Positions 7,147 through 46,478 of a stretch of 64,000 nucleotides of DNA are shown here, piece by piece. Origin of the DNA: the human T2T-CHM13v2.0 reference genome, Homo sapiens; NCBI RefSeq assembly GCF_009914755.1, contig NC_060944.1, one strand, 5' to 3'. Numbering within the stretch: position 1 is the stretch's first letter; each line of letters starts with the position of its first letter. The position numbers and the translations under genes were made by a program. The notes beneath the pieces are model-generated. The model was not told the DNA's origin and ran no database searches. It saw only the letters and a list, made by a program, of their open reading frames with translations.

Positions 7147-7288
7147 TTGCCCTCTGAGCCATAGCTGTTCATGCTGTCCTCAATGGACTCGTGGCTGGCC
7201 TGGCGCAGTGTCCGGCTGGGCATCTCCACTGCCAGGCCCGTCTCCGTGCTCCTCTGGATGGCCCCCTTCAGCCTCCGGCTGTCCCCTT
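7147..7288 (-). CDS. RIMS4: RIMS4 coding exon 2 (139 or 142 nt): (E)GDSRRLKGAIQRSTETGLAVEMPSRTLRQASHESIEDSMNSYGSEG(N)
   Basis: Polypyrimidine tract and CAG/AAG acceptors at 7291-7286; continues exon 1 in phase 1; contains the RIM-family IQRSTETG and RQAS motifs; donor AA|GTAAGT at 7147|7146, phase 2. Confidence 0.96.
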
Positions 7289-7642
7289 CTGGGCAAAGCG
7301 GCCAAGAGAGATGGGAAGAGAGACACAGGTGGGAGGGGGACAGAGAGAAGAGTCATCTGGTTAGCAGTGTTTCAGCAGCTGGGGGCTGTCCAGCTTCAGC
7401 CTCCACCCTCAGCCCATCAACCTCCTCAGACTCCTGGCCTCACCAGTAACCACTCCACCAACAAACAGTATTGCATGAGTTCTGTTAAACGATAGATTCA
7501 TTTACATGTGCTTTTTCTCCCCCTTGAATTCATTTCTCCCCTGAAATCTTCTCCAAATCATTTCTCTTCCTCCTCTTCAGCTACTATTTATTGAGCACCT
7601 ACTATGTGTCCTACTGTGTCAAGTGCTTTGCATGGATTTTGA

Positions 7643-46046: not shown

Positions 46047-46143
46047 CTGCGTCCTCGTCGTCGAAGGAGTTCATGCACGGGAAGTAGATGGCGAGCGCCT
46101 CGAAGGAGGCGGACAGACTGAGGCGGCTCTGCGAGCGCTCCAT
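46047..46143 (-). CDS. RIMS4: RIMS4 coding exon 1 (97 nt, MERSQSRLSLSASFEALAIYFPCMNSFDDEDA + first base of next codon)
   Basis: ATG at 46143-46141 in gcgggcATGg context; translation matches the recalled RIM4-gamma N-terminus; ends at donor CAG|GTAAGC (46047|46046), phase 1. Confidence 0.97.
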
Positions 46144-46220
46144 GCCCGCGCCGGCGCCGGGCGCCTCGGCCGCGGCGGCGGCGGCGGCGGCGGGCGGCTT
46201 GGGCAGCTTGGCCGCCCCAT
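46071..46220 (-). CDS. Overlapping upstream ORF, 49 aa: MGRPSCPSRPPPPPPPRPRRPAPARAWSARRAASVCPPPSRRSPSTSRA
   Basis: ATG 46220-46218 in aagaATGg context (A-3, G+4), 77 nt upstream of the main ATG (out of frame); TGA at 46073-46071. Confidence 0.45.
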   Translation of the reverse strand: MGRPSCPSRPPPPPPPRPRRPAPARAWSARRAASVCPPPSRRSPSTSRA

Positions 46221-46248
46221 TCTTGACGCGGAGTACGGCGCGCGGCGT
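46144..46248 (-). CDS. RIMS4: Candidate ACG-initiated 35-aa N-terminal extension of RIMS4: (M)PRAVLRVKNGAAKLPKPPAAAAAAAAEAPGAGAG
   Basis: GCCGCCGCCACC directly precedes ACG (46248-46246); 105 nt upstream of and in frame with the ATG, no stop between. Confidence 0.45.
46173..46193 (+). repeat. (CGG)7 repeat in the RIMS4 leader (CCG on the mRNA strand)
   Basis: Counted directly. Confidence 0.95.
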
Positions 46249-46364
46249 GGTGGCGGCGGCCCGGGGCCGGGCCGAGGCTCCGCTGCGGGGCTGGCGGGCG
46301 CGGCGGGGCCGGCGGGCGGGCCAGGAGCTGGCGGCGCGCGGAGCCCGAGGCGCGCTGTGCTGCT

Positions 46365-46406
46365 GGCGGCGGCGGCGGCGGCGGCGGTGGCGGCGGCGGT
46401 GGCGGC
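46365..46406 (+). repeat. (GGC)7 GGT (GGC)3 GGT (GGC)2 interrupted repeat in leader/promoter
   Basis: Counted directly, 14 units. Confidence 0.95.
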
Positions 46407-46470
46407 GCAGCGCGCTCTGGTCCGCGGCGCCCCCCGCCGGCAGCGCGAGGCGGGCTTGGAGCGGCGCCGC

Positions 46471-46478
46471 AGCCAATC
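46471..46478 (+). promoter_or_regulatory. CCAAT box (NF-Y, AGCCAATC), reversed relative to RIMS4
   Basis: AGCCAATC next to GC boxes ~330 nt upstream of the ATG; typical spacing would put the TSS near 46380-46420 (inference). Confidence 0.55.

What the first reader, a model, noticed from the sequence alone, without database searches (positions are those of the whole stretch)
46071..46220. Strong overlapping uORF whose stop overlaps RIMS4 Met24 (AUGA)
Seen: the only upstream AUG I found in the proximal leader (46220, aagaAUGg, A-3/G+4) is out of frame, reads through the annotated AUG, encodes a 7-proline run, and ends at UGA 46073-46071. That UGA shares two bases with the in-frame Met24 AUG (46074-46072). 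Known: overlapping uORFs in strong context repress the main ORF, polyproline slows ribosomes (eIF5A-dependent), and AUGA overlaps support termination-reinitiation in some viruses. Inference: a three-way switch between ACG-extended protein, leaky-scanned canonical protein and a truncated MNSFDDEDA... form. The overlap could also be coincidence, since any Met followed by an A-starting codon creates AUGA.
Basis: partly seen in the sequence, partly recalled or inferred. Interest (0 to 1): 0.7.

Follow-up and report, generated by a model that had tools for sequence, protein, structure and literature searches.

The report
Decoy AUG inside RIMS4's ACG extension
The brain gene RIMS4 has an already catalogued longer protein form that likely starts at an ACG codon, and the out-of-frame AUG found here lies inside that extension, where it likely diverts ribosomes from the shorter annotated form; the stop-start overlap and the proline run are likely by-products of the protein sequence.

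Summary
The sequence facts hold: one strong upstream AUG (46220), 49 codons, seven prolines, and a UGA overlapping Met24. The reinitiation reading is weak. Met-Asn forces AUGA (118 of 119 homologues). With the protein fixed, the first shifted-frame stop lands at Met24 in 40-58% of codon resamplings. The RIMS2 paralogue has the same stop with no out-of-frame AUG, the viral UGGGA signal is absent, and Met24's context is poor. The prolines are the shifted reading of an alanine (GCC) run; a rodent has four.

The main feature is a 35-codon in-frame extension from ACG 46248, conserved from primates to a shark that has Ile in place of Met1. It is already listed, with peptide support, in two published supplements. 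The AUG lies 28 nt behind the ACG, is kept in one rodent, and likely captures ribosomes that leak past the ACG, favouring the long form. That layout is a described class.

Not found in my searches: this uORF for RIMS4, a matching in-frame ACG site in RIMS2, and the idea that the fixed 28-nt spacing queues a ribosome on the ACG. Translation of the uORF itself is untested.

The parts
46144..46418 (-). RefSeq 5' leader of RIMS4 (275 nt, 87% G+C, no stop codon in any frame)
   Evidence: hub annotation
46246..46257 (-). ACG near-cognate start (46248-46246) with gccgccacc upstream; +4 is C. Only match to GCCGCCRNN + near-cognate codon on both strands of the window
   Evidence: same ACG listed in PMC11317171 Table S2
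46144..46248 (-). 35-codon in-frame N-terminal extension of RIMS4, conserved in jawed vertebrates
   Evidence: peptide spanning Met1 in PMC11317171 Table S3; PhyloCSF-positive in PMC9789052
46071..46220 (-). overlapping uORF, 49 codons, strong AUG formed by the Asn10-Gly11 codons (AAT GGG) of the extension, 28 nt after the ACG
   Evidence: same start and end in a rodent record P0123
46173..46193 (-). seven prolines of the uORF, the shifted reading of the GCC run that codes the extension's alanines
46141..46143 (-). annotated Met1 AUG, strong context (G-3, G+4); Ile in the shark record P0040
46071..46074 (-). AUGA: Met24 AUG (weak context, U-3, A+4) overlapping the uORF stop; forced by Met-Asn
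46473..46477 (-). ATTGG (inverted CCAAT-box-like) about 60 nt above the RefSeq start, compatible with a start site upstream of the ACG and the AUG
   Evidence: a motif match only

Best explanation
RIMS4 carries a conserved 35-codon extension that likely starts at ACG 46248, and the strong out-of-frame AUG inside it likely captures most ribosomes that leak past the ACG, which would lower the annotated Met1 form and favour the long form, while the AUGA overlap and the proline run are likely by-products of the main-frame protein. Shown: the layout, the conservation of the extension and a published peptide that spans Met1. Inferred: that the ACG is the exact start, that the uORF is translated, and that it changes the long-to-short ratio. 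Ribosomes ending at UGA 46071 would mostly be released.
For: 35 of 119 homologues carry the motif that begins at the ACG's Thr; 9 of them are named (two primates, two voles, quail, three teleosts, a shark). Column identity is at most 57% at -12 to -5 and 77-100% at 11 of the 12 columns +6 to +17 (columns 0-5 are fixed by my filter). Several rows switch frame above the ACG but none below it (by eye). The shark record has Ile at Met1. The ACG has the window's only GCCGCCRNN near-cognate context. PMC11317171 lists this ACG with 7 spectra of one peptide spanning Met1. A rodent record keeps the uORF's start and end, and its 4 substitutions all map to third positions of main-frame codons that are unchanged in three other rows. 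A supplementary note of PMC9789052 states that an out-of-frame AUG inside an extension should inhibit only the shorter form. The chr8 paralogue has the same shifted-frame stop without such an AUG.
Against: No ribosome-profiling or reporter data on the uORF were found. The AUG is shown in only two species, because no vertebrate DNA other than human was on hand. A single AUG in this leader is common in shuffles (36%). The ACG lacks +4G, and no hairpin stands out downstream (z +0.84), so it may be weak. An older transcript model began at about 46210, below both the ACG and the AUG (derived). Met1 is kept in 34 of 35 extension-bearing rows, so the short form probably matters. The peptide evidence is one peptide and gives no ratio. 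Only 4 of 46 aligned codons differ between human and rodent, so the rodent's kept AAT is weak evidence, and the uORF frame itself may be under some constraint.
Confidence: 0.6

Rival explanations
1. The AUG is a passenger of the Lys-Asn-Gly codons with no selected role, or most transcripts start below it, so it matters little.
For: 36% of shuffled leaders hold an AUG; Asn plus any G-starting codon makes one whenever AAT is used; the paralogue lacks it; an older model has a 67-nt leader; few third positions differ from the rodent at all.
Against: AAT is one of 4 exceptions in a 94% GC3 exon and is kept in a rodent where another T-ending codon (AGT) changed; the residue after Asn is G-initial in 40 of 40 rows (31 Gly, 8 Ala, 1 Val); RefSeq starts 198 nt above it. 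A strong AUG acts on scanning ribosomes whether or not it was selected.
Confidence: 0.2
2. The AUG is a roadblock that boosts the ACG: a ribosome initiating at 46220 stacks the next scanning complex with its P site on the ACG 28 nt upstream. This adds to the best explanation and does not replace it.
For: The spacing is 28 nt with no indel in 35 of 35 rows, while the rest of the extension varies from 28 to 38 codons. PMC7397870 passages report loss of upstream initiation when a downstream AUG was mutated and propose a queue; queuing onto non-AUG starts is reviewed in PMC9082881. About 28-30 nt between stacked ribosomes is recalled, not from a call.
Against: The fixed spacing is equally explained by the conserved peptide; in the paralogue the next AUG is in frame and 45 nt away; +4 would not be G where Ala or Val follows Asn; nothing was measured.
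Confidence: 0.15
3. One reading: ribosomes ending the uORF reinitiate on the overlapping Met24 AUG, tuned by eIF5A through the proline run.
For: AUGA is real; the stop position is kept in one rodent; Met24 is kept in 118 of 119 rows; some viral reinitiation needs neither UGGGA nor a good context.
Against: The overlap is forced by Met-Asn and expected 40-58% of the time; it is shared by the paralogue without an upstream out-of-frame AUG; there is no UGGGA in exon 1; overlapping uORFs typically repress and do not feed reinitiation; the proline run is 4 in the rodent, and 8 of 35 rows have at most 2 alanines to make one from; one named fish has Val at Met24.
Confidence: 0.05

Closest known systems
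RIMS4 non-AUG N-terminal extension (PMC11317171 Tables S2/S3; PMC9789052 PhyloSET)
   Same: Same ACG, same 105 nt, jawed-vertebrate conservation, peptide across Met1.
   Different: The table rows I saw do not mention the out-of-frame AUG, the shark's missing Met1 or RIMS2; the PhyloSET row used a 22-codon model that excludes the ACG and the AUG.
Out-of-frame AUG inside a non-AUG extension (PMC9789052 supplementary note: FAM102B, PIEZO1, SNRNP25, FBXL3; EIF4G2 figure in PMC9082881)
   Same: Leaky near-cognate start, then an out-of-frame AUG predicted to inhibit only the shorter form.
   Different: Here the uORF overlaps the annotated AUG and its translation has not been shown.
Viral termination-reinitiation (calicivirus and influenza B TURBS; victorivirus AUGA)
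   Same: AUGA stop-start overlap.
   Different: No UGGGA motif, an overlap forced by the protein, a short upstream ORF, no reinitiation data.
Queue-enhanced initiation at weak starts (AZIN1 AUU uORF; downstream-AUG roadblock)
   Same: A weak start with a possible slow site about one ribosome length downstream.
   Different: In AZIN1 the pause is in the same ORF as the weak start; here it would be initiation in another frame. Untested.

Membership tests
conserved non-AUG N-terminal extension | open main frame above the annotated AUG with a near-cognate codon in good context | tested here: met
   ACG 46248, GCCGCCACC upstream, A-3; +4 is C, so the full NAT1 motif (needs +4G) is not met
conserved non-AUG N-terminal extension | protein conservation that begins at that codon | tested here: met
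   primates to shark; first six columns fixed by my filter
conserved non-AUG N-terminal extension | translation of the extension shown | not testable with these tools
   published: 7 spectra of one peptide; the start codon itself is not proven
inhibitory overlapping uORF | out-of-frame AUG in strong context, in the transcript, with its stop below the main AUG | tested here: met
   true for the RefSeq transcript, not for the older 67-nt-leader model
inhibitory overlapping uORF | AUG conserved across species | tested here: inconclusive
   human and one rodent record; a G-initial codon after Asn in 40 of 40 rows allows but does not show it
inhibitory overlapping uORF | translated and lowers main-AUG output | not testable with these tools
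   needs ribosome profiling or reporters
TURBS-type termination-reinitiation | stop and start overlapping or adjacent | tested here: met
   AUGA 46074-46071, but at chance level
TURBS-type termination-reinitiation | UGGGA motif within 40-90 nt above the stop | tested here: not met
   definition; no UGGGA in exon 1 on the coding strand
TURBS-type termination-reinitiation | downstream product depends on translation to that stop | not testable with these tools
   no data on a Met24 product found
eIF5A-dependent stalling uORF (AZIN1 type) | conserved stalling peptide under selection in its own frame | tested here: not met
   proline run 7 vs 4; all 4 rodent changes alter the uORF peptide and spare the main frame; alanine run 1-8 long. 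One ortholog only; a pause may still occur.

The most novel reading that the evidence does not exclude
An ACG start older than the RIMS2/RIMS4 duplication makes the main short RIM proteins, and in RIMS4 a decoy AUG hidden in the extension's own Lys-Asn codons, held 28 nt downstream since the shark-human split, both silences the annotated Met1 and queues the next ribosome onto the ACG. The RIM4-gamma protein studied so far would then be the minor form.
Probability: 0.15. Interest if true: 0.7.

Novelty: new member of a known kind. Interest (0 to 1): 0.4.

Why it matters
RIM4 is a brain-enriched short RIM, and short RIMs bind calcium-channel beta subunits (PMC10169678 passages). If the uORF throttles Met1, the 35-residue-longer protein may be the main form, and constructs that start at Met1 would test the minor one. 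Changes at the ACG, its context or the AAT codon, now filed as untranslated-region variants, could then alter the protein. The matching site in RIMS2 points to an unannotated 15-residue extension there. The layout gives a clean natural test of roadblock-enhanced non-AUG initiation, because one silent base change removes the AUG.

Tried and rejected
Reinitiation signal: no UGGGA. RNA structure: ACG-to-Met1 region no more stable than shuffles (154 of 200 fold at least as well); the best hairpin 10-25 nt after the ACG is weaker than the exon median. uORF-frame searches gave two records in all. P0122 seems to read through the stop, but it has Trp wherever the window has UGA, also upstream, so it reflects a UGA=Trp translation and was dropped. 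A scan of viral contigs for vertebrate DNA found nothing. A structure model from 35 homologues left residues 1-188 under pLDDT 50, so it says nothing on the extension. A bacterial promoter scan was not applicable. A 15-base pattern around the ACG matched 14 places in the genome, only two at RIMS exons; it was built from both loci and is not counted as a test. That the uORF's Met-Gly-Arg start is the homologue of the paralogue's Met-Gly-Arg start was considered and rejected: by the conserved motif, Lys-Asn-Gly lines up with the paralogue's Lys-Ser-Gly. PMC10193022 (passages) was not used. The GENCODE ribosome-profiling ORF catalogue and a human brain ribosome-profiling study could not be read, so prior cataloguing of this uORF stays open.

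Full report
Observation. On the minus strand the RefSeq leader of RIMS4 (46418-46144) holds one AUG, at 46220, with A at -3 and G at +4. It is out of frame, runs 49 codons over Met1, has seven prolines and ends at UGA 46073-46071, which overlaps the Met24 AUG. Met1 has a strong context and Met24 a weak one. One AUG occurs in 1807 of 5000 dinucleotide shuffles of the leader.

The AUGA overlap. Keeping the protein and resampling synonymous codons (20000 draws at each of four GC3 levels), only four codon pairs can give a stop in the uORF frame, and the first stop is at Met24 in 40-58% of draws. Cys-Met-Asn is present in 118 of 119 homologues, Cys-Val-Asn in one. A search of the human genome with the exon 1 peptide found one other locus, on chr8 (L002), which I take as the RIMS2-gamma first exon from its position and the gene table in PMC10169678. 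There the shifted frame ends at the same AUGA with no out-of-frame AUG above it. Caliciviral and influenza B reinitiation needs UGGGA 40-90 nt above the stop (PMC3542737 passages); exon 1 has none. Other viral cases lack that motif, so absence does not exclude reinitiation. PMC10275272 passages say overlapping uORFs typically repress.

The proline run. It is the shifted reading of the GCC run that codes eight alanines in the main frame. The longest alanine run is 1 to 8 across 35 rows, at most 2 in 8 of them. A 14-proline run without any AUG lies further up the same leader.

What is conserved. A search with the main frame from ACG 46248 returned 119 proteins. 35 carry the motif beginning at the ACG's Thr; 9 are named: Saguinus, Pygathrix, Alexandromys, Microtus, Coturnix, Labeo, Coregonus, Dissostichus and the shark Chiloscyllium. 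The rest of the 119 mostly begin at or near Met1. Identity is at most 57% at columns -12 to -5, 66-89% at -4 to -1 (the start context read as protein), and 77-100% at 11 of 12 columns from +6 to +17. Columns 0-5 are fixed by my filter, and the search itself favours similar rows. The shark record has Ile at Met1, so it cannot start at an AUG there. The context GCCGCCRNN before a near-cognate codon occurs once on both strands of the window, at this ACG. That motif enhances non-AUG starts, but its full form needs +4G, which is missing here (PMC13754004 passages).

This extension is in print. PMC11317171 Table S2 lists RIMS4, ACG, 105 nt, jawed vertebrates, and Table S3 gives 7 spectra of one peptide spanning Met1 (supplement rows; main-text passages, do not name the gene). 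PMC9789052 has RIMS4 in its PhyloCSF set on a 22-codon model (supplement row), whose 5' end works out to about 46210, below both the ACG and the AUG.

The uORF in other species. Three searches in the uORF frame gave two records. P0122 has Trp at each UGA and was dropped. P0123, named Apodemus speciosus, has the same start and end, four prolines and four substitutions. Each substitution maps to a third position of a main-frame codon that is unchanged in three other rows (two named voles, one unnamed). So the AUG is kept in one rodent and the changes spare the main frame. With only 4 of 46 codons differing, this is weak evidence for selection on the AUG. AAT is one of 4 A/T-ending codons among 64. 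The residue after Asn is Gly, Ala or Val in 40 of 40 rows that show it; all have G-initial codons, which allows the AUG but does not show it.

Mechanism. Scanning ribosomes meet the ACG (nt 171), the strong out-of-frame AUG (nt 199) and Met1 (nt 276) in turn. Some start at the ACG; most of the rest likely start at the AUG and pass Met1 out of frame; few reach Met1. For illustration only, with assumed capture of 10-30% at the ACG and 80-95% at the AUG, Met1 would get about 4-18%, comparable to or below the ACG form. A supplementary note of PMC9789052 states this logic and names other genes (file 6 part 2); PMC9082881 shows a similar short ORF in EIF4G2 (passages). Shown: layout, conservation, extended peptide. 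Inferred: the start codon, uORF translation and the ratio effect.

Bolder reading. The AUG is 28 nt after the ACG, with no indel in 35 of 35 rows, though the extension varies from 28 to 38 codons. That is about one ribosome length (recalled). PMC7397870 passages propose that a downstream AUG can queue ribosomes on an upstream start. The conserved peptide explains the spacing equally well, so I give this 0.15.

Paralogue. L002 has an ACG in the same context, in frame, 30 codons above the aligned Met and 15 above an in-frame AUG. A profile of 7 distinct RIMS4 segments ranks it first of 222,614 positions, and 0 of 400 shuffles reach its score, though the best came close (31.1 vs 32.1). Against: one unnamed paralogue-type row with upstream sequence (P0073) lacks the motif, and I had no search left to test other species.

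Literature limits. RIMS4 with uORF, non-AUG or ribosome profiling gave 0 papers each; with translation initiation 8, none relevant by title and abstract start. RIMS2 was absent from the supplement files searched in PMC9789052 (two files not searched) and PMC11317171. Neither gene was in the main text of PMC3105428, the supplements of PMC11014515 or the main text of 10.1101/2024.02.16.580719 (supplements not seen). Ribosome-profiling ORF catalogues that I could not read may list this uORF.

Verdict. A real overlapping uORF inside a known ACG extension; new member of a known kind; the AUGA switch is unlikely. Interest 0.4.

Noticed in passing
L002 (G000:C8:105351123-105351222, +): The RIMS2-gamma-type first exon has an in-frame ACG in GCCGCCRNN context 15 codons above its first AUG, with a peptide like the RIMS4 extension; not found in the two supplements searched.
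   Followed up: partly
window 7285-7291, minus strand: Tandem acceptor CAG-AAG at exon 2 explains the 7288 versus 7285 exon starts and the one-residue-longer (270 aa) homologues.
   Followed up: partly
window 46071 to 46047: The uORF stop is 24 nt above the first junction, with four more junctions downstream, so uORF translation could expose the mRNA to nonsense-mediated decay (inference).
   Followed up: no
window 46418-46249: The leader has no stop in any frame; GCC repeats near 46405-46365 read as 14 Pro, 7 Arg or 7 Ala; an in-frame CUG with G-3 lies at 46410, 8 nt from the cap, but conservation does not reach it.
   Followed up: partly
P0040, P0044, P0045, P0077, P0079, P0081-P0083: The shark record has Ile at Met1; a pipefish has Val at Met24; several amphibians have an extra in-frame Met two codons above Met1; a salmonid has a Met inside the extension.
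   Followed up: no
P0122: A database protein follows the window's uORF frame with Trp at every UGA, a translation-table artefact.
   Followed up: yes
L009 (G000:C15:54267946-54267960, -): A second genomic match to the paralogue's 15-base ACG context, in a GC-rich non-repeat-looking stretch with a 43-codon open frame; not examined.
   Followed up: no
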